A DNA stretch of 38,156 bases from Rhodobacterales bacterium (GTDB taxonomy: Bacteria; Pseudomonadota; Alphaproteobacteria; Rhodobacterales; Rhodobacteraceae). Positions within the stretch are counted from its first letter, which is position 1. Each line of letters begins with the position of its first letter. The stretch covers positions 1 through 38,156 of the forward strand of contig PDRW01000045.1 of NCBI GenBank assembly GCA_002746935.1, written 5' to 3'. Position numbers and translations under genes: made by a program. The notes under the pieces are model-generated. The model had not been told where the DNA came from, ran no database searches, and saw nothing but the letters and a program-made list of their open reading frames with translations. Below, piece after piece: positions 624 to 36,824 of the stretch.

Positions 624-1616
<993 letters not shown>

Positions 1617-4171: not shown

Positions 4172-4175
4172 CGGA

Positions 4176-4397: not shown

Positions 4398-4439
4398 GGT
4401 CTCGTTCCCTTGACTGCCCTCTCTGCCGGAGGGGTGTTT

Positions 4440-21500: not shown

Positions 21501-22780
21501 CTGTCGCTGTTGTTGGCCGGGTTCTGATCGGTCGGGCCGGTCGAGGAAACCGTGACGGTGTTCTGGGCATTGCCCGCACCCACGACGGTCGCTTCGACAA
21601 TGACATTGCCAAGGCTGGTGTTGTTGCCCGCACCCGACGGGTCGGGGCGGGTGCAGCTCACCTCCTGCCCGGAGGTCGTGCAGGTCCAGCCGCCCTCGAT
21701 GACATTGTCGATCTGGTAGTTGCCCGGAATCGTATCGTTGAGCGTGAGCCCGCTGGGCGCATCGCCGGTGTATCTGGGCGCAAGGGTGAAGGTCACCGTA
21801 TCGCCCACCAGCAGGTTGCCGGTGTTCGGGCTGCGACTCTTGCTGACCGCCACGTCGGTTCCCTCGGTGACGTCCAGAGTGCCGGTGGCGGTGTTGTTGT
21901 CGGCATTCGGGTCGGGCGGGTTCTGGTTGATGACACTCGCCGAGGCGGTGATGTCAGACCCGCCGATCGCGGCGACCTGGCCGGTGAAGGTGCGGGTGAC
22001 GGAGGCGCCAACCGGGATCGAACCGGGAATGTTGCAGTTCCAGGTGCCACCGCTCAGGCTGCATCCGGCGGGCGCCGACATGTTGGTGATGCCGGTGGGC
22101 GCAGGGAAGGAAATGGTGAAGCCGTCGCTGGGGTGCGGGCCGTTGTTGGTCGCCGTCCAGACGAAATCGACCATGCTGCCGGCGGCAGCGGAAGAAGGGA
22201 TCGTGAGATCAAGCTGAATTTCCGCACCCCGCGTCAAGGTGGTGGTTTCGAGGTCGGAATTGTTGCCGGTGTTGGTCTCGACACCGGCAACCGTCGCCAC
22301 CTCGGCACCGACCTGAATCGAGCCCTCGATGTCGCTGGTCACCTGGACGACCGGCGTGATGTTTTCGTCGGCGGCCAGGGGCGGCACGGTGCAGGTCACG
22401 GTCAGCGGACCGGCGCCGGTGGTGGGCGCGCAATTCGTCAGCGGCGCGCTGACACCGACCAGAGAGGCGTTGGCGGGCACGTCGAAGGTCAACTGCGTTG
22501 CAGGCGCGCCCTGCGTGCCCGCGTTGGTGATCCGCAGGGTGTAGTCGATCACCCCGCCTGCCGCGTAGGTTACTCCGCCGTTCTCGCCGTCTTCGATGGC
22601 AAGCAGCCAGTCCACATTCTGAGCCCGCGCCTGGCCGGCACCCGACAGCACCCCGAGACAGAGCGCGAAGGTGAGAACCAGAAAACGCGCAAGAAAACCA
22701 AAACGCCGCACGGAAACCGTCCGGGGCTCAATATCACCATTCCACATCACAAGACCGCCTGTTTGCATTTGCCGCCGCAT
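15530..22780 (-). CDS. giant secreted surface/adhesin-like protein (2416 aa): Sec signal peptide, multiple DUF11-type 'conserved repeat domains', two SdrD-B/Cna-B-type domains, unique C-terminal ~110-aa domain
   Basis: N-terminal signal peptide …[31 protein letters not shown]. More than 10 diverged ~120-aa repeats carry …DVI.[16 protein letters not shown].LP… motifs, including three near-identical tandem copies. Cna-B-like segments read …[43 protein letters not shown]… and …[24 protein letters not shown]…. The protein is Thr/Asn/Gly/Val rich. The start is uncertain (ATG at 22780, or ATG at 22747 preceded by AGGCGG). The 2522-aa plus-strand ORF over the same DNA is an antisense artefact. Confidence 0.85.
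   Translation of the reverse strand: [2416 protein letters not shown]
17360..18440. repeat. three tandem ~369-bp (123-codon) near-identical repeats inside the adhesin gene
   Basis: Period measured between gtcgttgtcattggc landmarks at ~17728 and ~18097. Protein copies are [10 protein letters not shown]…/[10 protein letters not shown]…/[10 protein letters not shown]…, each carrying …FTVTNTGN…GAVDSTTFT…. Confidence 0.75.
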
Positions 22781-23240: not shown

Positions 23241-25778
23241 ATGAACGACATGAAGGTGTCAGGCTCAGACAACGTCGTCGCGACCTTCCCGGCGTCGATC
23301 ACCCAGAAACGCACCTGGTTCATGGAGCAGATCCACCCCGGCGACCGGGGCCTGATCATCGCGCTGCACTGGGAATTGCGCGGGTCCGTCACCAGTGATG
23401 CGGTGGAACGTGCCTTCCAGACGATCACCGACCGTCACGAGGTCTTCCGCACCCGGTTTCGCGAACGCGACGGCGAACCGGTGCAGGAGGTGCTGGCGCA
23501 TGTGGATTTCAGGCTCGCCCGGCTCGATCTGCGCAATGTGCCGGAGGCCGACCGCGCCCGCAAGATCAGCGAGATCGCCAGCGAACATGCCGGGGAACCC
23601 TTCGACATGGGGCGTGCCGGGCTGATCCGGGTGGCGATGGTCCAGACCGGACCCGACCGCGCCGCGCTGCTGATCGCGGTGCACAACAGCGTGTTTGACG
23701 GCTATTCCATCGGCGTGCTGGGGCACGAGCTCGGCACCCTGCTGGAGGCGGAAGCAAGCGGCCAGCCCGCCGAACTGCCGGAACTGGCGCTGCAATACGG
23801 CGATTTCGCCATGTGGCAGGCCGATTACGCCGCCAGCGGCGCCTTTGCCGGGGAAGAGGCCTATTGGGCGCAAAAGCTCGGCGGCATGGCCTGTTTCGAG
23901 ATCCCGCCCGACCGGCCGCGCAGCCCCGGGCCTACCGAAAGCCGCAACTACGCCCGCGATCTGCCGGCGGATTTCGAGCCCCGCCTGGCCGGGACGGCAA
24001 AGGCGCTCGAAACCTCGCTGTTCACCCTCGGCACCACAGCCTTCGCGGTTGCCCTCGAACGCTTCACCGGACGGCGCGACGTGAGCTTCGCAATCCAGGC
24101 CGCGGGCCGGAACGAGGTGGACCTCGAACCGCTGATCGGCATCTTCACCAATCCGATGGTGCTGCGCTTCGACATCGACCCGGAGGCCCCGCTCTCGGAC
24201 CATGCCCGGGCGGCGCGCGACATCATCAATGGCGCCCTCGCCCACCAGATGCTGCCCTTCGACAGGGTGGTGCAGGTGCTCAACCCGCCGCGCGACCCGC
24301 TGCGGATCCCGCTGGTGTCGATCATGTTCGGCCTGCAACCCGGCTTCCTGAAGACCCGCCGCTATGGTGCGATCGAACTGGTTCCGGAAATCTCGGATGT
24401 GCCCGGCACGCTCTACGATCTCAATGTCAACATTGCCGGGCACAAGACCGGCTGGCGGCTGGTGATCGACTACAACGCCAGGCTGTTCGACGAAGCGACG
24501 ATTGCGCGGTTTGCGGCGCTGCTGGTCGAGGTGCTCGACAGCCTGATGCACCACGCGGAGAGGCCGGTCGGCACGCTCCGGGCGGAGACGGAGCCCCGAC
24601 CGGAGGCCCGACCTGAGACTGCCGCCGGGGAAGCCCCGCTTGCGGTGGCGCCTTCAGAGGCGGCAGAGGAGGGAACCGCCGAAGGGGCAGCCACGATCGA
24701 AAGCCTGCGCGCGATCTGGTCCGATGTGCTCGCCATCCCGGCCGACAGTGCCACGGGCAATTTCTTCGACCTCGGGGGCCATTCGATCCTTGCGCTGCGG
24801 ATGCTGGCGATGGTCGCCGAAAGTTTCGGCCAGCGCCCGTCGATCCAGGCCTTCCTCGCCGACCCGACCCTTGAAGGACTGGCCGGCGTGCTCAACCCGC
24901 CCGCGCCCTCCCCTGCCCCGCAGACCGGCCCGGCGGCGGCGCCCGATACCGCCCCGAACCCGATCTGGGATCTCACCGAGCTGCGGGCGTCTTCGGCCGA
25001 CGCACCGGTGCTGATCGCCGTCAATCAGCCGTTCATGTTCCACGCCCTGGCGCGCGAGATGGTTGCCGATTGCGCCGTGGCGAGCCTGAGCGTTCCCGGC
25101 GCGGCAGAATTGCAGGCGCTCGAACAGGCCGGGCTCGATAAGGCGATCGAGGCCGCTCTCGCCCCGGTGCTTGCCCGCTACGCCGGGCGGCCGCTGATGT
25201 TTTGCGGCCTCTGCGTCGACGGGCTCGTCGCCCTCCGCCTCGCCCAGCGCCTGCGCGACGAGGGGCAGAACACCGCCCTCGTGGCGATGATCGACAGCTG
25301 GGCGCCCGGGTCCAGCCGGGCGTTTTCGCGGCTGCGCAAGAGCCTCGATCGCTGGCACATCCGCTTCCGGCGGATCGGCTATTATCTCGGGCTCCGGCGT
25401 CAGGGCGAGATCGGCTGGACCGATGTGCTGCGCCAGAACGATCTTGCCGCCGGGATCATCGCCCGGCTCACCGGGGTGCCCGCGAAAAACGAGACCGAGA
25501 CGCTGGTCGATGACACCGTCGAGGTGCTGGTCGGCCTGACCCGGGGCTATCGCTTCGCCCCCTATGATGGCGAGGTGGTGCTGTTCATCACCCGCTCGCA
25601 GGCGATGGTGCCGAAGGACGGCGTGCTTGGCTGGTCGGGCCTGCTGGCGGCGGATGTGACCGCCTATCCGGTCAACGGCTGGCATGGCGACGCACTGATG
25701 CGCAGCGGGTTCGAGCGGATCATCGGCGTGCTGGACGTGAAGGCACAGAGACTGCGCCGCGCCACGCCGCCGGGGTGA
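23241..25778 (+). CDS. stand-alone NRPS protein: condensation domain (variant HNxxxDG) - PCP - thioesterase (Cys nucleophile)
   Basis: 845-aa product. AGGAAAG RBS precedes ATG 23241, and an in-frame alternative ATG lies at 23118. C-domain motifs include …LIAVHNSVFDGYS…. The PCP reads …FFDLGGHSILALRM…. The alpha/beta-hydrolase TE reads …MFCGLCVDGLVALRLAQRL…IDSWAP…GWHGD…, aligning to GxSxG with Cys at the nucleophile position. Confidence 0.85.
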   Translation: MNDMKVSGSDNVVATFPASITQKRTWFMEQIHPGDRGLIIALHWELRGSVTSDAVERAFQTITDRHEVFRTRFRERDGEPVQEVLAHVDFRLARLDLRNVPEADRARKISEIASEHAGEPFDMGRAGLIRVAMVQTGPDRAALLIAVHNSVFDGYSIGVLGHELGTLLEAEASGQPAELPELALQYGDFAMWQADYAASGAFAGEEAYWAQKLGGMACFEIPPDRPRSPGPTESRNYARDLPADFEPRLAGTAKALETSLFTLGTTAFAVALERFTGRRDVSFAIQAAGRNEVDLEPLIGIFTNPMVLRFDIDPEAPLSDHARAARDIINGALAHQMLPFDRVVQVLNPPRDPLRIPLVSIMFGLQPGFLKTRRYGAIELVPEISDVPGTLYDLNVNIAGHKTGWRLVIDYNARLFDEATIARFAALLVEVLDSLMHHAERPVGTLRAETEPRPEARPETAAGEAPLAVAPSEAAEEGTAEGAATIESLRAIWSDVLAIPADSATGNFFDLGGHSILALRMLAMVAESFGQRPSIQAFLADPTLEGLAGVLNPPAPSPAPQTGPAAAPDTAPNPIWDLTELRASSADAPVLIAVNQPFMFHALAREMVADCAVASLSVPGAAELQALEQAGLDKAIEAALAPVLARYAGRPLMFCGLCVDGLVALRLAQRLRDEGQNTALVAMIDSWAPGSSRAFSRLRKSLDRWHIRFRRIGYYLGLRRQGEIGWTDVLRQNDLAAGIIARLTGVPAKNETETLVDDTVEVLVGLTRGYRFAPYDGEVVLFITRSQAMVPKDGVLGWSGLLAADVTAYPVNGWHGDALMRSGFERIIGVLDVKAQRLRRATPPG

Positions 25779-25801
25779 ACCCGGGTTTGAACGACCGGAG
25801 C

Positions 25802-25839
25802 AAAAGCCCCGCCCCGCTGACTTCGGGGGGCGGGGTTTT
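25802..25839. terminator. bidirectional intrinsic terminator (AAAA-gccccgcccc-loop-ggggcggggc-TTTT)
   Basis: 9-bp GC stem flanked by an A4 run on one side and a T4 run on the other. It lies between the convergent stop codons at 25778 (+) and 25842 (-). Confidence 0.7.
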
Positions 25840-25841
25840 CG

Positions 25842-28800
25842 TCAGATCCCCCGGCGCGCGCCGCGGCGATAGGATTTGAGCGTCGGTTTCTTCGCGGCAC
25901 CCTCACCGCCCTCACCGCCCTCACCGGAACCCCGGCTGTCGGCAAACCCCGCGAGTTCGGCGATCGTCGGATAGTCCAGCATATGGCGCGCCTCGACATT
26001 GAGGCCCGCGTCGATCATCCGCGCCGCAATGCGGAACAACGTGAGCGAATCCGCCCCGAGCGAAAACAGCGTCTGGTCGGTGCCGACCTCGTCGACCCCA
26101 AGCACCTCGCACCAGATGGCGGCCATCCGGCGTTCGGTCTCCGTCTCCGGCGCGGTATGCTGCACCGCCACACCGGCCGGAACCTCGGGCTCCGGCAGCG
26201 CCTTGCGGTCGAGCTTGCCATTGGCGGTCTGCGGCAGGGCATCAAGCCTCACCCAGGCCGTGGGCACCATATAGCCCGGCAGCCGCCCGGCGAGCGCGCG
26301 GCCGAGCGCCTCCGGCGCCGGCGCCTGCCCCGGTTCGGCCACCACATAGCCCACAAGCTGGTCGTCGCCGCGCGGCGACCTGCGCAGCGCCGCCGCCGCG
26401 GCGCGCACCCCGTCGAGCTCACGGATCCGCGCTTCGACCTCGCCAGGCTCGATGCGGAACCCCCTGAGCTTGATCTGCCCGTCGGTGCGGCCGAGCACCT
26501 GCAGCGTGCCATCGGCCAGCCGCCGGGCAAGGTCGCCGCTGCGGTAGAGCCGCTCCGCCTTGCCGTTCACCACCACTTCGCGGAAGGCCTGGCGCGTCAG
26601 CTCCGGCTGGCGGAAATAGCCTTTCGCGAGGCCCGCCCCGCCGATATTGAGCTCGCCCACCGCGCCCACGGGCAGAAGCTGATCCTGCGCCCCGAGCACA
26701 TGCAGCGTGGTGTTGGCCACCGGATGGCCGATGGTCACCGGCGCGCCGGGCGACACCCGCGAGATCGCCGACCAGATGGTGGTTTCGGTGGGGCCGTAGA
26801 CGTTCCACAGCGCCGCGCCCCCGGCGGTCAGACGCTCGGCCAGATCCTGCGGCAGGGGCTCGCCGCCCGCCAGCATGGTGAGCCCCGGCGCGGGCGCAAA
26901 TCCGGCCTCGGTCACCATCTGCCAGAGCGTCGGCGTGGCCTGCATATGGGTGATGTCACCCTTGCCGAGCCGCTCCACCAGCCGGAAGCCGTCAAGCACA
27001 TCCTCCGGCGCGGCAATCACCACCTTGCCGCCACGGATCAGCGGCAGGAACATCTCCAGCACGGAAATGTCGAACATCGTCGTGGTCACCGCGAGCAGCA
27101 CGTCGTCGGCCGCAAACCCCGGCTCTTCGGCCATCGAGGCCAGCAGGTTCACCACCGAGCGCTGGGAGATCTCGACCCCCTTGGGCGTGCCGGTGGAGCC
27201 GGAGGTGAAGATCACATAAGCGGTATCGTCGCCGCTGAACGCCACCGGCGCCGGCACCCCGCTGACACCAACCCCGGCGAGCGGAAGCGAGGTGAGGCCA
27301 AGCCCGGCGGCATAATCCGGCACCTCCGCCCGGTCGTGCACGATCGCCGAAACCTCTGCGGTTTCAAGGATCATGCGCAGCCGCGCGGGCGGCTGGGCGG
27401 GGTCTATGGGCACATAGGCATTGCCGCTCTTCATCACCCCGAGCAGGGCGACCACACATTCCATCGAACGCGGCAACGCCACCGCGATGCGCCCTCCCTC
27501 GCCGACGCCCGCATCCTGCAACGCCCGGGCGATGGCATCGCTCCCCGCGGCAAGGCCGCGATAGGAGATCCGCTGATCGCCGGATTCGAGCGCGATCCGG
27601 TCCGGGGTTTCGGCGGCCACATGGTCGACGAGCTGATGCACGGTTTCGAAATCCGGCAGCGGGGCTTCGGTGCGGTTGAGCTCATCGGCAAGCCAGGCCC
27701 GTTGCGCCGTACTCTGCACCGGCAGCGTGGCGACCGGTCGCGCGGTATCCGCCGCCATCTCCTCCAGCACGGTTTCCAGATGCCCGATCCAGCGCCGGAT
27801 TGTCTCCGGCTCGAACACATCGGCGTTGTAGTCGACATCGAGACGCAGACCGTCGCGGCGCTCGACGATGTTGAAGAACAGATCGAAATTCACCGCCGCC
27901 TTCGGGTTCGGCGCCGCCGTCATCCGCAGGGGCCCCATGTCGACGCTCTCGCCAAGGCGTTCGAGGTTGAACTGCACTTCGGTCAGCGGCACCCGGTCGA
28001 GCGCGCGCGCCACATCGAGCTCCCGCACCAGCGTGCCGAAGGTGTAATCCCGATGGTCGAGCGCGGCGGCGGTCCGTTCGGCGACGAACCGCAGATGCTG
28101 GGCAACCGTCGCCCCCGGCGCCACCCGGGCGCGGATCGGCAGGAAGTTGACGCAATGGCCCACGAGGTTCGGGTTGTCGAGCAGGGCCTGCCCGCCGGTC
28201 GGCACCCCGAGGACCACGTCGTCAGAACCGCTGAGCCGTCCGAGCACGATTTGCAGCGCGGCAAACAGGGTCGCGAACAGGGTACAGCCCTCCGCCGCCC
28301 CCGCCTTGCGCGCGGCCCGCATCACCTCGCCCGGGATCTGCGCGGTGACGGTGCCGCCGCGGTAGGATTTCACCGCCGGGTGCGGGTGGTCTGACGGAAG
28401 CTCCGGCACCTCCGGCACCTCGGCATATTCCTCATGCCAGAAGGCGCGCGCCTCAGGGGCCGGGCCCTTGCGCGCCTTTTCCAGCGCGTGGGCAGCGAAG
28501 GAGGGCGCGGGCACCAGCCCGGCGGGCGTGCCGCTGACCGCCTCGCGGTAGAGCGCGGCAAGCTCCTGCGTGAGCACATTGAACGACCAGCCGTCGCAGA
28601 CGATGTGATGCGCATCGAGCACCAGCACATGGTCTTCCGCCGAGCGGCGCACGAGAAAGGCGCGCAAGGGCGGGCCGGTGACGATGTCGATCTCGGTGGC
28701 GGAATCCTCGGCCAGAAGCGCGGCGAACGCCGCTTCCGGGTCATCCGCGCCGCTGAAATCATGCAGCGCGAGCGGCATCGGGAACGGGTCGAGAATGTCG

Positions 28801-31800
28801 AAGCTTTCGCCGTTGCGCGCAAAGACACAGCGCAGCCCGTCGTGGCGGGCAATGAGCCGGTCGAACGCCGCCTGAAGCGCGGGGACATCGAGCGGACCGT
28901 CGAGCGTGAAGGAGATGCTTTCGTTGAAGCTGCACGAGGCGGTGGCCCCCTGCTGGCTGGTCATCCAGATTTCGCGCTGCGCTTCGGTGAGCGGGATGGC
29001 TTTGGTGGGCGCGGGGTCGGCCCCGGGCGCGCCGTCAGGCTCCCCCGGCCCGTCACCCGGCCCGTCACCGGTCAGAATGCCGACGCCGCGCAGCGCATCG
29101 ACCGATTGTTCAAACACCTCGACCACCCGGTCATAGTCCGCCGGCTCATGCGCCGTGGTGAACAGGCAGGGGTAGCCGATCTGCACATGCACCCCCGCCA
29201 ACCGCATCAGCGGGAACAGCAATGCGGCGTTGGGGTCGTGGTCGGTCACCTGCGGCACGAACCAGCTCGAATAGCTCTCCACCAGCGGTGGCAGCCCGCG
29301 CGCGGCGAGGGCGGCGTTCATCCGCGTCACCGCCGCTTCGGTGCGCCGCGCGGTCTCGTCCCAGAGCTCGGGGCCATGGGCCTCCAGATGGTCGAGCGTG
29401 GCATCCACCGCCGCCAGCACCAGCGGGTGACGCACGAAGGTGCCGGCAAAGAAGGTCGGCATCGCTTCGGGCACCGACCCGTCGCCGAAGGACCACATGC
29501 CGCCGTCGAGCGCATCCATGAACCGCGCCGAACCCGCCAGCATGCCGATCGGCATGCCGCCGCCCATCACCTTGCCATAGGTGGCCATGTCGCCCTGGAT
29601 GTCCCAGACGCCCTGCATCCCCCTCGGGCCGACCCGGAAACCGGTCACCACCTCGTCCATGATCAGCGCCGCACCCGCCTCGCGGGTGATCTCGCGGATA
29701 TCCGCCACAAAGCCCTGCGGGCGCAGGTTGGGGTGACGGCTCTGCACCGGTTCGACCACCACACCGGCGAGGGTGTCGATATGGGCGCGGATCCAGTCGA
29801 GGCTTTCCGGCGCGCCATAGGGCAGCACCACCATGTTGGACAGGCTCGACCGCGGAATGCCCGGCGCGATCGGCAGCGCCGCCGGGTCGCCGCGTCTTTT
29901 GCCTTTCACCAGCACCTCGTCGAACTGGCCGTGGTAATCGTTGGAGAACACCACGATCCGCTCACGTCCGGTCACCGTGCGGGCCACCCGCATCGCCGCC
30001 ATCACCGCTTCGGAGCCGGTGTTGCAGAAGGTCGCGCGTTCATGGCCGACCATGCGCGCGAAACGCGCCGCCACCGGCCCGGCAAGGTCGCTCTGCGGTC
30101 CGATGGCGAAGCCGCGTGCCATCTGGGCGGTGACCGCCTCGATCACGAAATCCGGCGAATGGCCGAAGGCCGTCTGGCCGAAGCCGTTGACGAGGTCGAT
30201 ATATTCGTTGCCGTCGATGTCCCATATCCGCGCGCCCCTGGAGCGGTCGCAGACCACCGGATAGACCAGTTCCTTCCACTCGGCGCGGAATCCGGCGGCG
30301 CTGCGCGGATCGGCCAGCACCGCGCGGTGGGTCTGGACATAGGCCTTGGACTTCGGGCTGCGGGCGCTGTAGCGCGCGGCGAGGTCCTGGGCGAAGGCCA
30401 GTTGCGCAGGCGTCAGCGCGCCGCCCGCGGCATTGGTGGCCCGGCCGATGGAGAAGCCGCGTTTCGCCTCCGGTTCAGCGGCGGCCTCCGGCTCGGCCGC
30501 GGGGGCCGCCCTGGCGGCGGGCGTCTGCGGTGCGGGGCTGGGTGCGTCTGACACGGGGGTTTGCGCGGGCAATGCGGTACCACCCGAAAGCGCGGCAAGC
30601 TGTTTCGCAAACACCTGCTGCATGGTCGCAAGCTGCGCCTGCACCAGCGCCGCCACCGGGGTGTCGGCGGGCAGATCCCCGGCGCCGGGGATCATCGGCG
30701 CCCCGGTGATGGACGCGGGCGCGGCGGGCGCGGTCATCTGAACCGGTTCCGGCAACACGGGCGCCGCCGGCGCGGGGGCGGCGGCTTCGGGGGGAAGGGT
30801 CTCGTCGAGCCAGGCGGCCACCGCCTCGGCCGTCGGATAATGCGCGAGCAACTCACGGAAGGTCAGTTCGACGCCGTAATCCGCCGCCAGCCGCTGGCTG
30901 ACCTGGCCGAGAAACAGCGAGTCGAACCCAAGCTCGAGGAACGTGGCCCCGGCGTCCTCGGGGGTGAGATCCTCGCCGGAAATCTCGCCCAGAATGGCGA
31001 GCAATTCACCGACCAGACGCGGCTTGCGGTCGGCCGGTTCGGGGGTGGGCGCAGTGGGCGCATCGTTCATCGGGGGCACCTCCTGAGGGGTGGGGGGCGT
31101 GGTCTGAACAGCAGGCGCGGGCACCAAAGCGGCCGCACTCGCCCCGGCACAGGCGGCCGGCGCGCCTCCCGCGCCCGGCGCAGGCGCCTCGACCCAATGC
31201 CGCTTGCGCTGGAACGGATAGCCCGGCAGCGCGACCCGCCGGCTGCCGCGCGGCCCGAGCTTCGCCCAGTCCACCTCGGCCCCGGCGCTCCAGAGCTGTC
31301 CGAAGGCCTGCGCCATCGCCACCGCGTCGGGCTCCGCCCGGGTGTGATCGGGCAGCGACTGGACAATCGCCACCTCCGCCTCGCGCGGCAGGCTCTGCCG
31401 GGCGAAAGCCGACAGCGTGTTGCCCGGCCCCGCTTCGAGCAGGATCGCCGGGCCCGCGCCCGCGAGCGCTTCGACACCGGCCTGGAAATTCACCGTCGCC
31501 CGCGCCTGACCGGCCCAATAGGCCGGGTTGGTGGTCTCGGCACCGGTGACCCAGGTGCCGGTCACACAGCTCACATAGGGAATTCCCGGCGGCGCCAGCC
31601 GGACGCCGGAAATCGCTTTGCCCAGCGCATCGCAGACCGGATCCATCATCGCCGAGTGGAAGGCATGCGAGGTATGCAGCCGGCTACAGGCGATGCCCGC
31701 CGCCTTGAGCCGCGCTTCCATCCGGTCGATCGCCTCGAAACCGCCTGCGAGCACGTTGAGCCGCGGTGCGTTGCGGGCGGCGATGTCGACCGTGCCGTCG

Positions 31801-34800
31801 AGATGCGGCGCCAGATCCTCCATCGGCACCCGCACCGAGAGCATCGCCCCCCCGGGTTGGGCCTGCATCAACTCGCCCCGCCGCGCGATGATCCCGAGAC
31901 CGGTCTCGAAATCCATCACCCCGGCGAGCACCGCGGCGGTGAACTCACCCACCGAATGGCCGATCATCGCCGCCGGTCTCACCCCGCGCGTCACCCAGAG
32001 CCGGGCGCAGGCGAACTGGGTCAGGAACAGCGCGGGCTGGGTCAGCCGGGTTTCGCGCAGGGCGCGCGCCATGTCTGCGTCGGACGGATCGCCGAAACAG
32101 AGCATGGTCTTGACATCGAGCCCGAGGATCGGCCGCAGGATCTCGGCGCCGGCGTCGATCCAGCGGGCAAATTCCGGCTCGCTGGCGTAAAGCCCGCTGC
32201 CCATGCCGGGGTATTGCGACCCCTGCCCCGGAAACATGAACGACACCGGCGGGTTGCCCTCCATCGCCGGCCGGCGCAGGGCGGGGGCGCTGCGGAGCGC
32301 GGCCGCGAGGCTTGCGGGATCCGTCCCCGCCACCGCGCTCCGGCAGGCAAAACCGGGCCGCCCCTCTTGCAGCGTGAAAGCCGCATCGGCCGGATGCGGC
32401 GCATCGCCCGCTTCCAGCGCGTCGGCCAGGCGTTCCTGCATCGCCTTCAGCGCCTCCGGCGTCTTCGCCGACAGCGGCAGCACCTGCACCCCCCCGGGCG
32501 CGGCCTTCCGGGCCACAGCCGGGGCTTCTTCCAACACCAGATGCACATTGGTGCCCCCGACGCCGAAGGCGCTCACCCCGGCGCGCAGCGGCAACGGCCC
32601 GTCCCAGGGTTCGAGCCCCGCAGGCACCCGGAACGGGGTGCCGGTGAAGTCGATATTGGGGTTCAGCGCCTTGAAACTGGCAACCGGCGGCAGCTTGCGG
32701 TGGGCGAGCATCAGCACCGTCTTGATGGTGCTGACCACCCCGGAGGCGGCATCGAGATGGCCGATATTGCCCTTCACCGACCCGAGCGCGCAGCTTTCCG
32801 CGGGCAGACCCTCGCCGAAGGCGCGCGTCAGACCGCTGATCTCGATCGGGTCGCCGAGCGGCGTCGCGGTGCCGTGGCATTCGACATAGGAGATCGTCTC
32901 CGCCCCGACACCCGCATCCGCCTGCGCCAACCGGATCGCCGCCGTCTGGCCGGAGACCGATGGCGCGGTGAAAGAGATCTTGCCGGCGCCGTCATTGTTG
33001 ACCCCGGCGCCGCGGATGATCGCATGGATCTGGTCGCCGTCGGCCAGCGCGTCTTCGAGCCGGCGCAGCACCACCACGCCCGCGCCATGGGAAAACACCG
33101 TGCCGGAGGCGGCGGCATCGAAGGGGCGGCAGGTGCCGTCGTCGGAGGAAAGCCCCCCCTCCTGCGCCAGATAGCCACGCCGCTCGGGGAAGGTGATCGA
33201 CACCCCGCCCGCAAGCGCCATGTCGCATGTGCCCGCGCGCAGGTTCAGCACCGCCTGCGCAATCGCGGTGAGCGAGGTGGAACAGGCTGTCTGCACGGTC
33301 ATCGCCGGGCCATGCAGGTTGAGCTTGTAGGCCACCCGCGTGGCCAGACAATCGCCGAGATTGCCGGTCATCTCGGCGAATTTGCCGGTCTGGTAATTCG
33401 AGGTGAATGCCTCCGCCTCGCCGCGGTCGCCCAGCAGGTTGTGGATGAGATAGGTATTCATCGACGACCCGGCGAAGACCCCGACCGGCATGTCCATATG
33501 CAACGGGTCGTGCCCGGCCCGCTCCAGCGCGTGGTAGCAGATTTCGAGGAAGACGCGGGCCTGCGGGTCGGTCACCGCCGCTTCGCGCGGGTACATGCCG
33601 AAGAATTTCGCGTCAAACAGCGCCGCGTCGTCCAGCCCGGGGCGGACCGGCACATAGGCCGCGGAGGCGCGTTGTTCTGCCGTGAAGCTGTCTTCCAGTT
33701 CGTCGGCGCCAAAGGGGCGGATGAGGTTGGTGCCGCGCGCGACATGCTCCCAGAATTCGGCCAGCGATCCGGTGCCGGGAAGGCGCGCGGCCATGCCGAC
33801 GATGGCAATCGCCCCTTGCGGAAGCGCCGCCGGGGGCGCGGGTTCCGGCGCGGGCGCGGGTTTCGCCGGCGGCGCGGGTTCCGGCGCGGGCTCAGACGCG
33901 GCCACCGCTGGCGCCTCCGGTTCCGGCAGCCCCTGCCCGGCGATCCCGGCGATCCCGGCGAGCTTTTCGGCAAGCGGTGCAAGGCGGGGCACATCAAACA
34001 TCACTGTAATGTCGAAATGCACACCGAGCGCCTTTTCCAGCGTCGCATGGACATTGATCAGCTGAAGCGAGCTGCCCCCCGCCTCGAAGAAGGTCATGTC
34101 ACCCGGGACCGGCCCGCAGCCCAGCACCTCGTCCCAGATCCGCGCGATGATCCGCTCGACCTCTCTGGCGGTGACCTTCCCCGCCGCCGGTTCTGCCCGG
34201 GCCCCGTCGGGGGCCGCCGCTTTCTCTTCAAGACTTCGTACCAGCGCCTTGCGGTCAACCTTGCTGTTCACCGTCAGCGGGAAATCCGCAACCACACGGT
34301 TGACCCGGGGGTGCATCCCCTCGGGCAGGCGCGCGCCCAGCGCGTCCATCACCGCGCGAATGAAGCCGGGAGGGTCGGCGGGCATGGCGCCGGCGGGTTT
34401 CAGGAAAGCGGCAATGCGTTTCTCGCCGGTGCCGGCCGTGGTCAGCACCACGGCGGCATCGACCAGCATCGGCAGCGCGCGCAGGTTGTGTTCGATCTCG
34501 TCGAGCTCGATCCGCCGCCCGCCGAGCTTGACCTGACGGTCGGTGCGGCCATGAAACTCGTAGAGCCCGTCGGCGCGCCGCCGCGACAGATCGCCGGTCA
34601 GATAGACCAGCCCCTCACGCCCGGGCCTGGGGTCTTCGATGAACGCCTCCGCGGTGCGCTCCGGCTGGTTGAGATAGCCCAGCGCCACGCCGTCGCCGGC
34701 AGCCACCAGCTGGCCGATTTCTCCGTCCGGCAGAACTTCGTGGTCCTTGCCGACCACGAAACACTCGCAGAACCCCGTCGCGCTCCCGATCGGGAGCGCG

Positions 34801-35786
34801 CTGCCGTCGAGATCGTCCGGAGAGACCAGATGCTTGGTGGTAAAGACCGAATTCTCCGTCGGCCCGTAACCGTTGATGATCTCGATCTGCGGATCGGCCT
34901 GCATCAGCCGCCGCGCCAGCGGCGCCGACATCACATCGCCCCCCGCGCCAAACTGCCGCAGCCCCACCAGGGCATCGCGCTGATGTTCGATCATCAGATG
35001 CGCAAGCCCGGTGTAGAACCAGGCGACCGTGACCTGTTCCTCCCGGATGGTGCGCGCCAGCGCCTCCAGCGAGGGCTTGGGCTGGCACACCACGGCCACT
35101 GCGGCACCATTGAGCAGCGGGGCCCAGATCTCCCAGGTCGAAAGATCGCAGGCAATGGTGGAATTGGCGAGCGAAACATCGCCGGGAAGGATCTGCCCGA
35201 CCGGCTGGGCATATGCCAGCCGCGCGAGCGAGCGGTGCGGCAGCACCACGCCCTTGGGGATTCCGGTCGAACCGGAGGTGTAAAGGATGCAACAGGGGTC
35301 TTCGCCGCTACGCACCGGGAAACCGGCTTGCACCGCCGGTTCGTCGCGCAGCAAATCCGCCACGGCGGCACGGGGCACCGCGCCGGCGAGGCTTTCGGCC
35401 AGCGGGCCATAGGGCGCATCCCACAGGATCACCGAGGGGCGCGCATCCCCGATCACATAGCCCAGATGCTGTGAATCATAAGCCGGATCGAGCGGCACGA
35501 AGGCGCAGCCCGCGCGCATGATCCCCGCCATCGCCACAATCGCGTCCGGCGTCCGGTTGCTGATCAGCGCGATGTTGTCGCCAGGTTTCGCGCCGCTGGC
35601 GATCAGGTGCCGCGCAACCCTGTCAGCCGCCCGGGCCATTTCGGCATAGCTGTAGCGCCTGCCGCCGCCGGTGAGGGCGAGGTTGTCCGGGGCGATCTCC
35701 TTCGCACGCAGGAAACAGCTGTAAAGATCGAGCCCGCGATCATATCCGAGCTTGGCAAAACGGTCAGCCATGGCGTTGTGCGGCAT
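25842..35786 (-). CDS. hybrid NRPS-PKS megasynthase (3314 aa): A-PCP-KS-AT-ACP-aminotransferase(class III)-C-A-PCP
   Basis: Start ATG 35786 has a GAGGGG RBS. A1 carries core motifs (TSGSTGIPKGV, NGYGPTE, GRTDRQVKLGGRRIELDEIE) and PCP1 carries GGSSL. KS has TACSTS, HGTAT and GNIGH. AT has GHSVGE plus HAFHS (malonyl-type). The ACP reads LGFDSL. An embedded GSA-aminotransferase-like domain contains …DEVVTGFRVG…. The C domain has canonical AHHIVCDGWS. A2 has TSGSTGTPKGV and …FDISVLEMF…. PCP2 reads LGADSL. There is no terminal TE. This is the same domain order as MycA/ItuA beta-amino-acyl lipopeptide starter synthetases. Confidence 0.9.
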   Translation of the reverse strand: MPHNAMADRFAKLGYDRGLDLYSCFLRAKEIAPDNLALTGGGRRYSYAEMARAADRVARHLIASGAKPGDNIALISNRTPDAIVAMAGIMRAGCAFVPLDPAYDSQHLGYVIGDARPSVILWDAPYGPLAESLAGAVPRAAVADLLRDEPAVQAGFPVRSGEDPCCILYTSGSTGIPKGVVLPHRSLARLAYAQPVGQILPGDVSLANSTIACDLSTWEIWAPLLNGAAVAVVCQPKPSLEALARTIREEQVTVAWFYTGLAHLMIEHQRDALVGLRQFGAGGDVMSAPLARRLMQADPQIEIINGYGPTENSVFTTKHLVSPDDLDGSALPIGSATGFCECFVVGKDHEVLPDGEIGQLVAAGDGVALGYLNQPERTAEAFIEDPRPGREGLVYLTGDLSRRRADGLYEFHGRTDRQVKLGGRRIELDEIEHNLRALPMLVDAAVVLTTAGTGEKRIAAFLKPAGAMPADPPGFIRAVMDALGARLPEGMHPRVNRVVADFPLTVNSKVDRKALVRSLEEKAAAPDGARAEPAAGKVTAREVERIIARIWDEVLGCGPVPGDMTFFEAGGSSLQLINVHATLEKALGVHFDITVMFDVPRLAPLAEKLAGIAGIAGQGLPEPEAPAVAASEPAPEPAPPAKPAPAPEPAPPAALPQGAIAIVGMAARLPGTGSLAEFWEHVARGTNLIRPFGADELEDSFTAEQRASAAYVPVRPGLDDAALFDAKFFGMYPREAAVTDPQARVFLEICYHALERAGHDPLHMDMPVGVFAGSSMNTYLIHNLLGDRGEAEAFTSNYQTGKFAEMTGNLGDCLATRVAYKLNLHGPAMTVQTACSTSLTAIAQAVLNLRAGTCDMALAGGVSITFPERRGYLAQEGGLSSDDGTCRPFDAAASGTVFSHGAGVVVLRRLEDALADGDQIHAIIRGAGVNNDGAGKISFTAPSVSGQTAAIRLAQADAGVGAETISYVECHGTATPLGDPIEISGLTRAFGEGLPAESCALGSVKGNIGHLDAASGVVSTIKTVLMLAHRKLPPVASFKALNPNIDFTGTPFRVPAGLEPWDGPLPLRAGVSAFGVGGTNVHLVLEEAPAVARKAAPGGVQVLPLSAKTPEALKAMQERLADALEAGDAPHPADAAFTLQEGRPGFACRSAVAGTDPASLAAALRSAPALRRPAMEGNPPVSFMFPGQGSQYPGMGSGLYASEPEFARWIDAGAEILRPILGLDVKTMLCFGDPSDADMARALRETRLTQPALFLTQFACARLWVTRGVRPAAMIGHSVGEFTAAVLAGVMDFETGLGIIARRGELMQAQPGGAMLSVRVPMEDLAPHLDGTVDIAARNAPRLNVLAGGFEAIDRMEARLKAAGIACSRLHTSHAFHSAMMDPVCDALGKAISGVRLAPPGIPYVSCVTGTWVTGAETTNPAYWAGQARATVNFQAGVEALAGAGPAILLEAGPGNTLSAFARQSLPREAEVAIVQSLPDHTRAEPDAVAMAQAFGQLWSAGAEVDWAKLGPRGSRRVALPGYPFQRKRHWVEAPAPGAGGAPAACAGASAAALVPAPAVQTTPPTPQEVPPMNDAPTAPTPEPADRKPRLVGELLAILGEISGEDLTPEDAGATFLELGFDSLFLGQVSQRLAADYGVELTFRELLAHYPTAEAVAAWLDETLPPEAAAPAPAAPVLPEPVQMTAPAAPASITGAPMIPGAGDLPADTPVAALVQAQLATMQQVFAKQLAALSGGTALPAQTPVSDAPSPAPQTPAARAAPAAEPEAAAEPEAKRGFSIGRATNAAGGALTPAQLAFAQDLAARYSARSPKSKAYVQTHRAVLADPRSAAGFRAEWKELVYPVVCDRSRGARIWDIDGNEYIDLVNGFGQTAFGHSPDFVIEAVTAQMARGFAIGPQSDLAGPVAARFARMVGHERATFCNTGSEAVMAAMRVARTVTGRERIVVFSNDYHGQFDEVLVKGKRRGDPAALPIAPGIPRSSLSNMVVLPYGAPESLDWIRAHIDTLAGVVVEPVQSRHPNLRPQGFVADIREITREAGAALIMDEVVTGFRVGPRGMQGVWDIQGDMATYGKVMGGGMPIGMLAGSARFMDALDGGMWSFGDGSVPEAMPTFFAGTFVRHPLVLAAVDATLDHLEAHGPELWDETARRTEAAVTRMNAALAARGLPPLVESYSSWFVPQVTDHDPNAALLFPLMRLAGVHVQIGYPCLFTTAHEPADYDRVVEVFEQSVDALRGVGILTGDGPGDGPGEPDGAPGADPAPTKAIPLTEAQREIWMTSQQGATASCSFNESISFTLDGPLDVPALQAAFDRLIARHDGLRCVFARNGESFDILDPFPMPLALHDFSGADDPEAAFAALLAEDSATEIDIVTGPPLRAFLVRRSAEDHVLVLDAHHIVCDGWSFNVLTQELAALYREAVSGTPAGLVPAPSFAAHALEKARKGPAPEARAFWHEEYAEVPEVPELPSDHPHPAVKSYRGGTVTAQIPGEVMRAARKAGAAEGCTLFATLFAALQIVLGRLSGSDDVVLGVPTGGQALLDNPNLVGHCVNFLPIRARVAPGATVAQHLRFVAERTAAALDHRDYTFGTLVRELDVARALDRVPLTEVQFNLERLGESVDMGPLRMTAAPNPKAAVNFDLFFNIVERRDGLRLDVDYNADVFEPETIRRWIGHLETVLEEMAADTARPVATLPVQSTAQRAWLADELNRTEAPLPDFETVHQLVDHVAAETPDRIALESGDQRISYRGLAAGSDAIARALQDAGVGEGGRIAVALPRSMECVVALLGVMKSGNAYVPIDPAQPPARLRMILETAEVSAIVHDRAEVPDYAAGLGLTSLPLAGVGVSGVPAPVAFSGDDTAYVIFTSGSTGTPKGVEISQRSVVNLLASMAEEPGFAADDVLLAVTTTMFDISVLEMFLPLIRGGKVVIAAPEDVLDGFRLVERLGKGDITHMQATPTLWQMVTEAGFAPAPGLTMLAGGEPLPQDLAERLTAGGAALWNVYGPTETTIWSAISRVSPGAPVTIGHPVANTTLHVLGAQDQLLPVGAVGELNIGGAGLAKGYFRQPELTRQAFREVVVNGKAERLYRSGDLARRLADGTLQVLGRTDGQIKLRGFRIEPGEVEARIRELDGVRAAAAALRRSPRGDDQLVGYVVAEPGQAPAPEALGRALAGRLPGYMVPTAWVRLDALPQTANGKLDRKALPEPEVPAGVAVQHTAPETETERRMAAIWCEVLGVDEVGTDQTLFSLGADSLTLFRIAARMIDAGLNVEARHMLDYPTIAELAGFADSRGSGEGGEGGEGAAKKPTLKSYRRGARRGI

Positions 35787-36125
35787 AGTGCACCCCTCTC
35801 AATCGCGGTGGCCCTCTGCCGCCCGCGATCATGAAAATCCTTGCAAGCCGGAGCCCTGCCGGGCTGCCATGCCCGCTGCCTGCAACTCTCCGGGCGCTTG
35901 CGCTTCTCTGCCCTTGAACCCGAACTCTATGGCAAAGGTTGGAAAATTGTGAGTCAACCCCGACGAAATGCTGAAAGGCGCAGCGCTGGCCCGGCGCCCG
36001 CGGCGGTGGTAGCCTTCCGGCCGGGACAGAGGAGAGGCAAAACATGTTCGAGACCGCAGCCGCGCACCCCGCCATGCGCACCCTGCCCCGGTGCCGTCCC
36101 GGCCTCTTCCCCGCAGGAGGGACGG

Positions 36126-36824
36126 GTGTTTGATATCGGGCTTCACCTCTGGCTGCTCGACCCTTCGGACCATCTGTTGCCGGACCTCCGACGGCTGCTG
36201 TCGGAAGACGAGCGCGCCCGCGCCGCGCGGTTTGTCCGTCCGCTTGACCGTGACCGCTACATCACCGGACGGGCGCGGCTTCGCCAGATCCTTGCGGCCG
36301 CAACCGGTCGCGACCCGCGCGCCCTTCGCTTCAGTTACGGTGCCCACGGCAAACCCGCGCTCAAGGGGGGGCCTGCGTTCAACCTCAGCCATAGCGGACC
36401 GCTTGCCGCGCTGGCGATCGGCCCTGCGGCCACGCCCGCGATCGGGATCGGGATCGACATCGAACGGATCCGCCCGATCGAAGCCGCCGTTGCGCGGCGG
36501 CATTTCTCGCCAGCGGAACATGCAGCCCTCGGCCAGATGCCCGCCGCCGACTGGCTCACCGGGTTCTATCGCTGCTGGACCCGCAAGGAAGCCCTCGTCA
36601 AGGCGCAGGGAACCGGCCTGTCGATGCCGCTCGACAGTTTCGACGTTTCCCTGACAGACAACGCCCGGCTCGAGCGGATCGACGGTGACAGCCCCGGCAA
36701 CTGGCGAATGATCCATTTCAACCCCGCGCCCGGCTGGGTGGGGGCGGTTGCGGCGCGCACCGGCGGGCAGGAGATCGCTTTGAGCCTGCGCGAGACCGGC
36801 ACGCCGCCCCTGCCCTTCGGCTAG
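36126..36824 (+). CDS. Sfp-type 4'-phosphopantetheinyl transferase
   Basis: 232-aa product from GTG 36126, preceded by an AGGAGG RBS 5 nt upstream. Motifs include FNLSHSG, GIGIDIE and WTRKEALVKAQG. It is divergent from the megasynthase promoter. The ORF-track start at 35841 would lie inside the divergent promoter and give an implausibly long product. Confidence 0.8.
   Translation: MFDIGLHLWLLDPSDHLLPDLRRLLSEDERARAARFVRPLDRDRYITGRARLRQILAAATGRDPRALRFSYGAHGKPALKGGPAFNLSHSGPLAALAIGPAATPAIGIGIDIERIRPIEAAVARRHFSPAEHAALGQMPAADWLTGFYRCWTRKEALVKAQGTGLSMPLDSFDVSLTDNARLERIDGDSPGNWRMIHFNPAPGWVGAVAARTGGQEIALSLRETGTPPLPFG

What the first reader, a model, noticed from the sequence alone, without database searches (positions are those of the whole stretch)
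28950..30350. Embedded class-III (GSA-type) aminotransferase domain within the megasynthase
Seen: between the ACP (LGFDSL) and the canonical C domain (AHHIVCDGWS) lies ~450 aa with …[24 protein letters not shown]…DEVVTGFRVGPRGMQ…, typical of PLP fold-type I class III aminotransferases. Its position after KS-AT-ACP is the MycA/McyE arrangement, which installs a beta-amino group on the polyketide-extended starter.
Basis: partly seen in the sequence, partly recalled or inferred. Interest (0 to 1): 0.5.

Follow-up and report, generated by a model that had tools for sequence, protein, structure and literature searches.

The report
Aminotransferase domain inside NRPS-PKS megasynthase
The finding is real but ordinary: a well-known type of amine-installing (PLP-dependent) domain sits inside a giant hybrid peptide/polyketide synthetase, with the small twist that here it probably acts on an amino-acid-derived chain rather than a fatty acid.

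Summary
Confirmed. Window 25842-35786 (minus strand) is one 3314-aa ORF with the domain order A-T-KS-AT-T-AMT-C-A-T. The AMT domain is aa 1792-2243, window 29058-30413. It hits Pfam Aminotran_3 at E 2.5e-45. Its best solved relative is the aminotransferase domain of mycosubtilin synthase MycA (42% identity, E 5e-132), ahead of glutamate-1-semialdehyde aminomutases (E ~1e-51). The Schiff-base lysine (K2072) and the pyridine-binding aspartate (D2044) are present and nearly invariant in 201 homologues. The 12-residue insertion typical of assembly-line AMTs is also there. No KR, DH or ER domain follows the KS-AT, so the β-keto group is available for transamination.

The gene is on the minus strand. 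MycA itself lacks a cis-AT. The loading domain is an amino-acid-type NRPS A domain, not a fatty-acyl ligase. The predicted unit is therefore a 3,4-diaminoacyl residue, which is then joined to glycine (A2 code DILQLGVIWK).

The same megasynthase + A-less C-T-TE + PPTase trio recurs across Alphaproteobacteria, usually inside polysaccharide loci. It is probably the orphan "roseobacter hybrid PKS/NRPS" cluster. The domain is a new member of a known kind; interest is modest.

The parts
25842..35786 (-). Hybrid NRPS/PKS megasynthase, 3314 aa, with the domain order A1-T1-KS-AT-T2-AMT-C-A2-T3.
   Evidence: It is a single ORF, and Pfam domains were assigned. The closest relatives are annotated 'hybrid non-ribosomal peptide synthetase/type I polyketide synthase'.
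34218..35735 (-). A1, the loading adenylation domain (aa ~18-523). It is of the NRPS amino-acid type. Its 10-residue code is DLWWGGGVFK, with D235 and K517 retained.
   Evidence: The best PDB matches are NRPS A domains (LgrA and others), not fatty-acyl-AMP ligases. The codes were extracted.
33951..34154 (-). T1 carrier domain. The phosphopantetheine serine is S573 in FFEAGGSSLQ (codon 34068-34070).
32673..33812 (-). KS domain (aa 659-1038). The active-site cysteine is C835 in TACSTS. HGT and GH motifs are also present.
31281..32240 (-). AT domain (aa 1183-1502). It carries GHSVGE (S1278) and HAFH (H1374), the malonyl-CoA-type motif.
   Evidence: The motif rule comes from established PKS knowledge.
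30804..31019 (-). T2, the ACP that presents the β-ketoacyl chain to the AMT. The attachment serine is S1623 in LGFDSL (codon 30918-30920).
30414..30803 (-). Ala/Pro-rich, low-complexity linker of about 130 aa between T2 and the AMT domain.
   Evidence: Seen in the sequence. No Pfam domain was found there.
29058..30413 (-). AMT, the class-III (fold-type I) PLP-dependent aminotransferase domain of the MycA type (aa 1792-2243). The Pfam core is aa 1842-2153 (window 29328-30263).
   Evidence: Pfam hit; PDB matches; BLASTP against MycA AMT gives 42% identity, E 5e-132.
29571..29573 (-). Codon of K2072, the predicted Schiff-base (PLP-binding) lysine in TYGKVMGGGMPIG.
   Evidence: It aligns with the lysine of the GK(I/V)IGGG motif in MycA AMT and in four GSAM structures. 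It is lysine in 200 of 201 homologues.
29655..29657 (-). Codon of D2044 in MDEVVTGFR, the aspartate that pairs with the PLP pyridine nitrogen.
   Evidence: It is invariant in 201 of 201 homologues. The role assignment follows PMC3870968.
27696..29000 (-). C domain (aa 2263-2697) with a canonical HHIVCDG motif. It joins the β-aminoacyl chain on T2 to the amino acid on T3.
26214..27626 (-). A2 adenylation domain (aa 2721-3191). Its code, DILQLGVIWK, is the glycine type.
25944..26129 (-). T3 carrier domain with attachment serine S3247 in LGADSL. It is followed by a Gly/Glu-rich basic C-terminal tail.
23241..25778 (+). Convergent partner gene encoding a C-T-TE protein with no A domain. The C motif is HNSVFDG, the T motif is GGHS, and the TE motif is GLCVDG with Cys as nucleophile. 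The mechanical ORF starts at 22845; the likely true start is the ATG at 23241.
36126..36824 (+). Divergent Sfp/HetI-type 4'-phosphopantetheinyl transferase. The likely start is the GTG at 36126, which follows an AGGAGG sequence.

Best explanation
The stretch encodes a catalytically competent, cis-acting, PLP-dependent β-ketoacyl-S-ACP aminotransferase (AMT) domain of the MycA type. It lies at the PKS-to-NRPS junction of a nine-domain megasynthase.

Proposed sequence of events:
1. A1 adenylates an α-amino acid of unknown identity and loads it on T1.
2. AT loads malonate on T2.
3. KS performs one decarboxylative condensation, giving a 4-amino-3-oxoacyl-S-T2. No KR, DH or ER domain is present, so the 3-keto group persists.
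4. The AMT takes an amino group from a free donor and enters the PMP form. The donor is glutamine in MycA and is unknown here.
5. The AMT transfers that amino group to C3, via the usual ping-pong mechanism through K2072. The product is a 3,4-diaminoacyl-S-T2.
6. The C domain couples this acyl chain to Gly-S-T3.
7. The separately encoded A-less C-T-TE(Cys) protein handles the last step or release. How it does so is unknown.

Shown here: the domain's identity and order, intact catalytic residues, absence of reducing domains, and the Gly code of A2.
Inferred: the chemistry on C3, the amino-acid nature of the starter, the amine donor, and everything downstream of T3.
For: - Pfam Aminotran_3 matches at E 2.5e-45.
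- The MycA AMT crystal structures 6kfm/6kfu are the top PDB hits at E ~6e-116 over the whole domain. Identity is 42% with E 5e-132. GSAMs come second at E ~1e-51.
- K2072 aligns with the motif lysine of MycA AMT and GSAMs. K, D2044, E2045, G1924, H1952, E2012, R2051 and T2116 are each conserved in at least 200 of 201 homologues.
- The stretch aa 2041-2077 fits the class-III PLP-attachment pattern, PS00600, which I recalled from memory.
- There is a 12-residue insertion relative to GSAM at GGMWSFGDGSVPEAMP. This is the feature described for assembly-line Aminotran_3 domains (PMC3870968).
- Domain order is T2-AMT-C and no KR, DH or ER domain is found.
- MycA AMT was shown biochemically to aminate an ACP-bound β-ketothioester with Gln as donor (Aron et al. 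2005, as summarised in PMC3870968; PMC11751314).
- A1 is an NRPS-type domain: its best PDB hits are LgrA and other amino-acid A domains. It keeps D235 and K517. Its orthologues carry canonical Val, Pro and Ser codes recovered with the same anchor positions.
- A2 carries the Gly code, which is conserved in most of the 80 related loci.
- The whole nine-domain order is conserved in more than 40 loci across several phyla.
Against: - There is no biochemical or product data for this protein or for any close relative.
- The A1 code DLWWGGGVFK matches no code I know. A non-amino-acid starter cannot be fully excluded.
- The domain's nearest non-assembly-line relatives are aminomutases, and sequence alone cannot separate transaminase from mutase chemistry.
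- The amine donor and the stereochemistry are unknown.
Confidence: 0.85

Rival explanations
1. The domain has the same AMT chemistry but works on a fatty-acyl or aryl starter, as in MycA and the iturins. Under this reading A1 activates a carboxylic acid that is not an amino acid, and the product is a β-amino fatty or aryl acid joined to Gly.
For: The window's A1 code (DLWWGGGVFK) is unlike any code I know. It has three glycines, which predict a large pocket. A1 also scores against long-chain acyl-CoA ligase models, but well below their cut-offs.
Against: The best structural relatives of A1 are amino-acid A domains. The α-amine-binding Asp235 is retained. Orthologous A1 domains carry canonical Val, Pro and Ser codes. 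I saw no sign of fatty-acyl-AMP-ligase-type similarity.
Confidence: 0.1
2. The domain acts as a GSAM-like aminomutase rather than a transaminase. The amino-acid-derived 4-amino-3-oxoacyl-S-ACP is an α-aminoketone, formally analogous to glutamate-1-semialdehyde. The domain could shift the amine, converting 4-amino-3-oxo to 3-amino-4-oxo through a 3,4-diamino intermediate, with no external donor.
For: The nearest stand-alone relatives are GSA 2,1-aminomutases, at E ~1e-51. The predicted substrate has the vicinal amino/carbonyl arrangement that GSAM uses; this is my inference.
Against: The domain is far closer to MycA AMT, a proven transaminase (E 1e-116 against 1e-51). It also shares the insertion specific to assembly-line AMTs. 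Homologues of the same clade follow many different starter types. No precedent is known to me.
Confidence: 0.04
3. The AMT domain is a degenerate or purely structural remnant, and the β-keto group is passed on unchanged.
For: There is no direct evidence. Lys-less Aminotran_3 domains do exist in some assembly lines (PMC3870968).
Against: All cofactor-binding residues checked are intact and match the family consensus. The ORF is uninterrupted. The domain is conserved at 57-74% identity in orthologous clusters.
Confidence: 0.02

Closest known systems
Aminotransferase (AMT) domain of mycosubtilin synthase subunit A, MycA, and of iturin ItuA (PDB 6kfm, 6kfr, 6kfu)
   Same: It has the same fold and family: 42% identity over 452 aa, including the N-terminal extension and the ~12-residue insertion. 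The Lys and Asp catalytic residues are the same. It occupies the same position, directly after the ACP of a KS module that lacks a KR and directly before a C-A-PCP module. It is expected to perform the same β-keto to β-amino conversion on an ACP-bound thioester.
   Different: MycA and ItuA start with a fatty-acyl ligase and use a stand-alone malonyl transacylase, FenF/ItuD. Here the starter domain is an amino-acid A domain and the AT is in cis. The next residue is Gly rather than Asn. The assembly line stops after one or two residues instead of building a cyclic heptapeptide.
AMT domain of McyE (microcystin) and NdaF (nodularin)
   Same: The KS-AT-...-ACP-AMT-C-A-PCP layout has a cis-AT. The AMT converts the polyketide end into a β-amino acid.
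   Different: McyE receives a long, reduced and methylated polyketide (Adda) and contains a C-methyltransferase. The downstream residue is D-Glu.
A-CP-KS-AT-CP-PLP1 proteins catalogued by Milano et al. 2013 (for example Pedobacter heparinus C6XWU5, predicted Nrp-Mal-Gly)
   Same: They share the A-T-KS-AT-T-AMT order and the same predicted amino acid-malonate-Gly logic. Related Pedobacter loci were recovered here at 44-48% AMT identity.
   Different: They are known only from sequence surveys and no product is known. They are often Pro-primed and usually lack the C-T-TE partner.
The hybrid PKS/NRPS cluster conserved among roseobacters (Martens et al. 2007, as cited in PMC5014874)
   Same: The described gene content matches: a PKS/NRPS hybrid, an NRPS, a phosphopantetheinyl transferase, and a glycosyltransferase in relatives. 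The taxon (Rhodobacterales) also matches. The product was unidentified as of 2016.
   Different: Identity with that cluster is inferred from gene content only, because the original paper could not be read. The window copy has no adjacent glycosyltransferase.
Glutamate-1-semialdehyde 2,1-aminomutase (HemL)
   Same: It shares the Aminotran_3 fold, the GK(I/V)IGGG lysine motif and the DE(V/I)xTGFR motif.
   Different: GSAM is a stand-alone enzyme acting on a free substrate with intramolecular amine-shift chemistry. It lacks the N-terminal extension and the 12-residue insertion, and its similarity is much weaker (E ~1e-51 against 1e-116).

Membership tests
Class-III (Pfam Aminotran_3, fold-type I) PLP-dependent aminotransferases | A significant match to the Aminotran_3 profile above the curated threshold. 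| tested here: met
   E 2.5e-45, 155.3 bits against a cut-off of 30.5, at aa 1842-2153.
Class-III (Pfam Aminotran_3, fold-type I) PLP-dependent aminotransferases | A Schiff-base lysine in the conserved motif. | tested here: met
   K2072 in TYGKVMGGG aligns with the motif lysine of MycA AMT and of GSAM structures. It is lysine in 200 of 201 homologues. The stretch aa 2041-2077 fits the PS00600 pattern, which I recalled from memory.
Class-III (Pfam Aminotran_3, fold-type I) PLP-dependent aminotransferases | An aspartate that hydrogen-bonds the pyridine nitrogen of PLP. | tested here: met
   D2044 in MDEVVTGFR is invariant in 201 of 201 homologues. The role assignment follows PMC3870968.
Assembly-line (MycA-type) AMT domains | Closer to MycA AMT than to stand-alone class-III enzymes, over the full domain length. 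| tested here: met
   6kfm scores E 5.7e-116 against 7.6e-52 for the best GSAM. Identity is 42% over 452 aa.
Assembly-line (MycA-type) AMT domains | An insertion of about 12-14 residues relative to GSAM, plus an N-terminal extension. | tested here: met
   GSAMs show a 12-residue gap opposite GGMWSFGDGSVPEAMP. GSAM alignments begin about 50 residues after the MycA alignment does. The feature is described in PMC3870968.
Assembly-line (MycA-type) AMT domains | Fused in cis directly after an ACP loaded by a KS module without a KR, and followed by an NRPS C domain. | tested here: met
   The order is KS-AT-T2-AMT-C-A-T, and no KR, DH or ER domain was hit.
Assembly-line (MycA-type) AMT domains | Transaminates an ACP-bound β-ketothioester using a free amino-acid donor (Gln in MycA). 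| not testable with these tools
   This requires an in vitro assay. It is known only for MycA (PMC3870968).
Iturin-family lipopeptide synthetase subunit A (MycA/ItuA/BmyA) | An N-terminal fatty-acyl (AMP) ligase as the loading domain. | tested here: not met
   A1 is an NRPS amino-acid A domain that keeps Asp235 and Lys517. Its best PDB hits are LgrA and similar domains.
Iturin-family lipopeptide synthetase subunit A (MycA/ItuA/BmyA) | No cis-AT; malonate is loaded by a separate transacylase (FenF/ItuD). | tested here: not met
   A cis-AT is present at aa 1183-1502 with GHSVGE and HAFH motifs. The iturin arrangement is described in PMC11751314.
Iturin-family lipopeptide synthetase subunit A (MycA/ItuA/BmyA) | Followed by multi-module NRPS subunits that build a heptapeptide. 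| tested here: not met
   The only further NRPS gene in the window is one A-less C-T-TE protein.
Glutamate-1-semialdehyde 2,1-aminomutase (HemL) | A stand-alone enzyme of about 430 aa without carrier-protein context. | tested here: not met
   The domain is embedded in a 3314-aa synthetase.

The most novel reading that the evidence does not exclude
The window carries a copy of a widespread assembly line that appears to be still orphan: A(aa)-T-KS-AT-T-AMT-C-A(Gly)-T, plus an A-less C*(HN/HQ)-T-TE(Cys) protein, plus a PPTase. In it the AMT would make a vicinal 3,4-diamino acid from an amino-acid starter. In most alphaproteobacterial relatives the cluster sits inside exopolysaccharide or capsule loci. 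The small aminoacyl product might therefore be delivered onto a cell-surface glycan rather than released as a free metabolite. This would give a function to the 'conserved roseobacter PKS/NRPS' cluster known since 2007.
Probability: 0.2. Interest if true: 0.6.

Novelty: new member of a known kind. Interest (0 to 1): 0.3.

Why it matters
The AMT domain itself adds nothing new. It is a textbook MycA/McyE-type amine-installing domain, and more than 1500 homologues were seen in a single search. It matters only as a marker.

First, it identifies the megasynthase as a β-amino-acid-forming hybrid. Because the starter is an amino acid, it predicts an unusual vicinal-diamino building block coupled to glycine.

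Second, it places the locus in a large family of clusters across several phyla whose product I could not find described. This family probably includes the conserved roseobacter hybrid PKS/NRPS cluster. In annotated relatives it is co-located with polysaccharide biosynthesis genes.

If that link is functional, it would be an uncommon case of NRPS/PKS chemistry feeding cell-surface glycan decoration.

Tried and rejected
- **Exact look-up of the megasynthase in public assemblies.** It is not on record, so the source organism stays unknown. The best AMT identities are 74% to Aliigemmobacter aestuarii, and 69% to Thioclava and 84% over 72% of the query to an unnamed ENA fragment.
- **Plus-strand ORFs over the same DNA.** 28434-30551 and 30561-35474 are treated as high-GC antisense artefacts. 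These two were not scanned themselves. Comparable shadow ORFs elsewhere in the window gave no Pfam family.
- **Fatty-acyl-ligase starter (a strict MycA analogy).** Rejected on the PDB hits and specificity-code evidence.
- **Glycosyltransferase, Wzc, Wza, CocE-hydrolase or flippase genes in the window.** Relatives carry these next to the cluster, but tblastn found none here.
- **The GINT1_N-like gene.** It follows C-T-TE in Rhizobium and Aliigemmobacter but has no counterpart in the window.
- **Literature searches for a characterised product of this family.** Ten searches were made. They found only the statement that the roseobacter cluster's product is unidentified, plus unrelated iturin-like lipopeptides such as the flavipulchrins.
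- **Martens et al. 2007.** The paper could not be read.
- **Structure prediction and fold search.** Not run, because 42% identity to a solved structure already settles the fold.
Full report
**Observation**

The window has about 65-70% G+C, so mechanical ORFs appear on both strands. The real gene over the finding is on the minus strand. It is an uninterrupted 3314-aa ORF, 25842-35786.
- LGFDSL at aa 1619-1624
- WDIDGNEY...GHSP at aa 1855-1878
- DEVVTGFRVGPRGMQ at aa 2044-2058
- AHHIVCDGWS at aa 2392-2401

Pfam gives the following domain order:

| Domain | Residues (aa) |
|---|---|
| AMP-binding (A1) | ~18-523 (range from NCBIfam) |
| PP-binding (T1) | ~545-612 (my estimate, around S573) |
| KS | 659-1038 |
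| AT | 1183-1502 |
| PP-binding (T2) | ~1595-1660 (my estimate, around S1623) |
| Aminotran_3 | 1842-2153 (E 2.5e-45) |
| Condensation | 2263-2697 |
| AMP-binding | 2721-3191 |
| PP-binding | 3220-3281 |

No KR, DH, ER or MT domain was found.

**Identity of the domain**

A phmmer search of solved structures puts the aminotransferase domain of mycosubtilin synthase MycA (6kfm/6kfr/6kfu) first, at E ~6e-116. The alignment covers 452 residues. Glutamate-1-semialdehyde aminomutases follow at E ~1e-51, and other class-III enzymes rank lower. BLASTP against the MycA construct gives 42% identity, 61% positives and E 5e-132. This alignment sets the domain limits at aa 1792-2243, window 29058-30413 on the minus strand.

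GSAM alignments start about 50 residues later than the MycA alignment. They also show a 12-residue gap opposite GGMWSFGDGSVPEAMP. An N-terminal extension and a 12-14-residue surface insertion are exactly what Milano et al. described for Aminotran_3 domains embedded in NRPS/PKS proteins (PMC3870968).

**Catalytic residues**

In the HMMER alignments the lysine of TYGKVMGGGMPIG (K2072, codon 29571-29573) lines up with the lysine of GK(I/V)IGGG in MycA AMT and in four GSAM structures. From my own knowledge, this is the Schiff-base lysine, Lys273 in Synechococcus GSAM.

I aligned 201 sequences: the window, 80 genomic loci and 120 database proteins. K2072 is lysine in 200 of them. D2044 of MDEVVTGFR, the pyridine-nitrogen partner according to PMC3870968, is invariant. 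E2045, G1924, H1952, E2012, R2051 and T2116 are conserved in at least 200 of 201. Residues 2041-2077 fit the class-III PLP-attachment pattern, which I recalled from memory.

**How it most likely works**

KS has its Cys835 and its His motifs. AT carries GHSVGE and HAFH, which by established rule marks a malonyl-CoA-type AT. T2 has Ser1623. With no reducing domain present, one malonyl extension leaves a 3-oxoacyl thioester on T2.

MycA AMT has been shown to aminate such an ACP-bound β-ketothioester using glutamine as donor (Aron et al. 2005, summarised in PMC3870968; mechanism restated in PMC11751314). McyE does the equivalent in Adda formation (PMC2885083). By homology, the domain here converts 3-oxoacyl-S-T2 to 3-aminoacyl-S-T2. 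The canonical C domain (HHIVCDG) then couples this chain to the residue on T3. Fold-type I enzymes are dimers, which fits a KS-dimerised PKS module; this point is inference.

**Where it differs from MycA**

The loading domain is not a fatty-acyl ligase. Its best structural relatives are amino-acid A domains: LgrA, SrfA-C, PvdL and TycA.

I mapped the ten specificity positions from motif anchors. The same anchors return textbook codes in relatives, which validates the mapping:

| Code | Assignment |
|---|---|
| DAFWLGGTFK | Val |
| DVQFIAHVVK | Pro |
| DVWHLSLIDK | Ser |
| DILQLGMIWK | Gly |

With these anchors, A2 of the window reads DILQLGVIWK, a glycine code. A1 reads DLWWGGGVFK. It retains Asp235 and Lys517 but has an unfamiliar, glycine-rich pocket. 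The starter is therefore most probably an α-amino acid of unknown identity. The AMT substrate would then be a 4-amino-3-oxoacyl chain, and the product a 3,4-diaminoacyl unit followed by Gly.

MycA and ItuA also lack a cis-AT, so the KS-AT-ACP-AMT layout is closer to McyE. Milano et al. had already listed A-CP-KS-AT-CP-PLP1 proteins, for example Pedobacter heparinus predicted as Nrp-Mal-Gly. The layout is therefore not new.

**Rivals**

1. A fatty or aryl acid starter, as in the iturins (confidence 0.1). The odd A1 code allows it, but Asp235, the PDB neighbours and the orthologues' amino-acid codes argue against it.
2. GSAM-like aminomutase chemistry on the α-aminoketone (0.04). It is chemically conceivable because the substrate resembles GSA. 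However, the domain is far closer to a proven transaminase and shares the features specific to assembly-line AMTs.
3. A dead domain (0.02). The intact active site and conservation in orthologues contradict this.

**Wider context**

The best 80 include Aliigemmobacter aestuarii (74% AMT identity), Pseudooceanicola, Acidimangrovimonas, several Rhizobium species, Nitratireductor, Novosphingobium and Rhodospirillales. Bacteroidota, Gammaproteobacteria, Planctomycetota and cyanobacteria follow at 43-50%.

The nine-domain order A-T-KS-AT-T-AMT-C-A-T is kept in most of these loci. In some, A-T is a separate ORF. In most of them the residue after the AMT is predicted to be Gly, while the starter code varies among Val, Pro, Ser and others.

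In the alphaproteobacterial loci the megasynthase is accompanied by an A-less C-T-TE protein and an Sfp-type PPTase. The window has the same trio:
- C-T-TE at 23241-25778 on the plus strand, convergent with the megasynthase
- PPTase at 36126-36824 on the plus strand, divergent from it

Annotated plasmid or chromid copies were examined in Rhodobacter sp. CZR27, Jannaschia sp. M317, Loktanella salsilacus and Rhizobium sp. SL42. In all four the trio lies among glycosyltransferases, an initiating sugar transferase, a flippase, Wzc/Wza-type export genes, a pyruvyl transferase and a DegT aminotransferase. None of these genes is present in the window.

[quoted passage not shown] It is probably the same family. 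This is inferred from gene content only, because the primary paper was not available. I found no paper that assigns a product.

**Verdict**

The finding is correct, and the domain is a new member of a well-known kind. The modest extra interest lies in three points:
- the amino-acid priming, which predicts a vicinal diamino acid
- the unusual partner protein, with C motif HN/HQ instead of HH, no A domain and a Cys-TE
- the apparently orphan, polysaccharide-linked cluster family it belongs to

Noticed in passing
window 23241-25778 (+): The partner NRPS protein is C-T-TE with no adenylation domain. Its C-domain motif is HNSVFDG, so the second (catalytic) His of HHxxxDG is Asn. In 20 related loci this position is Q, N, A or H. 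Its TE has GLCVDG, with Cys where EntF TE has the nucleophilic Ser; this Cys is present in 19 of the 20 related loci (all but L022, the one locus with an A domain in this module). From memory, Cys-TEs are known from the obafluorin and sulfazecin pathways, which form strained rings.
   Followed up: partly
window 34218-35735 (-), and loci L001-L080: The loading A domain has an unfamiliar specificity code, DLWWGGGVFK. Orthologues carry Val (DAFWLGGTFK), Pro (DVQFMAQVVK), Ser (DVWHMSLVDK) or other codes, whereas the post-AMT A domain is almost always Gly. The variable-starter/fixed-Gly pattern spans several phyla.
   Followed up: partly
L081 (Rhodobacter sp. CZR27), L082 (Jannaschia sp. M317), L083 (Loktanella salsilacus), L084 (Rhizobium sp. 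SL42), L009: In annotated relatives the same three-gene NRPS/PKS unit is embedded in polysaccharide loci. These contain glycosyltransferases, a sugar transferase, a flippase, a Wzc tyrosine autokinase, Wza, a pyruvyl transferase, a DegT aminotransferase, GH16 and a TIGR04325 methyltransferase. A CocE/NonD hydrolase or a GINT1_N-like protein is often adjacent. The window copy lacks all of these.
   Followed up: partly
window 15530-22780 (-): A 2416-aa protein made of about 10 DUF11 and 4 DUF7507 repeats plus SdrD_B/CARDB-like Ig folds, which looks like a giant surface or adhesin-type protein. The region shows strong positive GC skew on the plus strand (up to 0.13). The 2522-aa plus-strand ORF over it has no Pfam hit and is probably an artefact.
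   Followed up: no
window 11931-15593 (-): A 1220-aa protein whose C-terminal part weakly matches outer-membrane β-barrel families (DUF7840, DUF481, DUF2490, OMP_b-brl). It lies directly downstream of the DUF11 giant and may be its secretion or anchoring partner.
   Followed up: no
window 624-4685 (-): A class Ib-like ribonucleotide reductase set. It comprises the small subunit (624-1601), the large subunit with an RNR_N domain (1617-3764) and a glutaredoxin-like NrdH-type ORF (within 4176-4685). This is ordinary housekeeping context.
   Followed up: no
window 25842-25943 (-) and 30414-30803 (-): The megasynthase ends in a Gly/Glu-rich then basic tail (GSGEGGEGGEGAAKKPTLKSYRRGARRGI) after T3. 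This may be a docking element for the separately and convergently encoded C-T-TE protein. Long Ala/Pro/Glu-rich linkers (for example AAEPEAAAEPEA) separate T1 from KS and T2 from AMT.
   Followed up: no
window 23241-36824 compared with the flanks: The three NRPS/PKS genes have 68-70% G+C, against about 64-65% for the flanking 1-22.8 kb and 36.8-38.2 kb. In the window and in Aliigemmobacter (L001) the C-T-TE gene is inverted relative to most relatives. Both facts are compatible with horizontal acquisition or rearrangement, or merely with Ala/Gly/Pro-rich composition.
   Followed up: no
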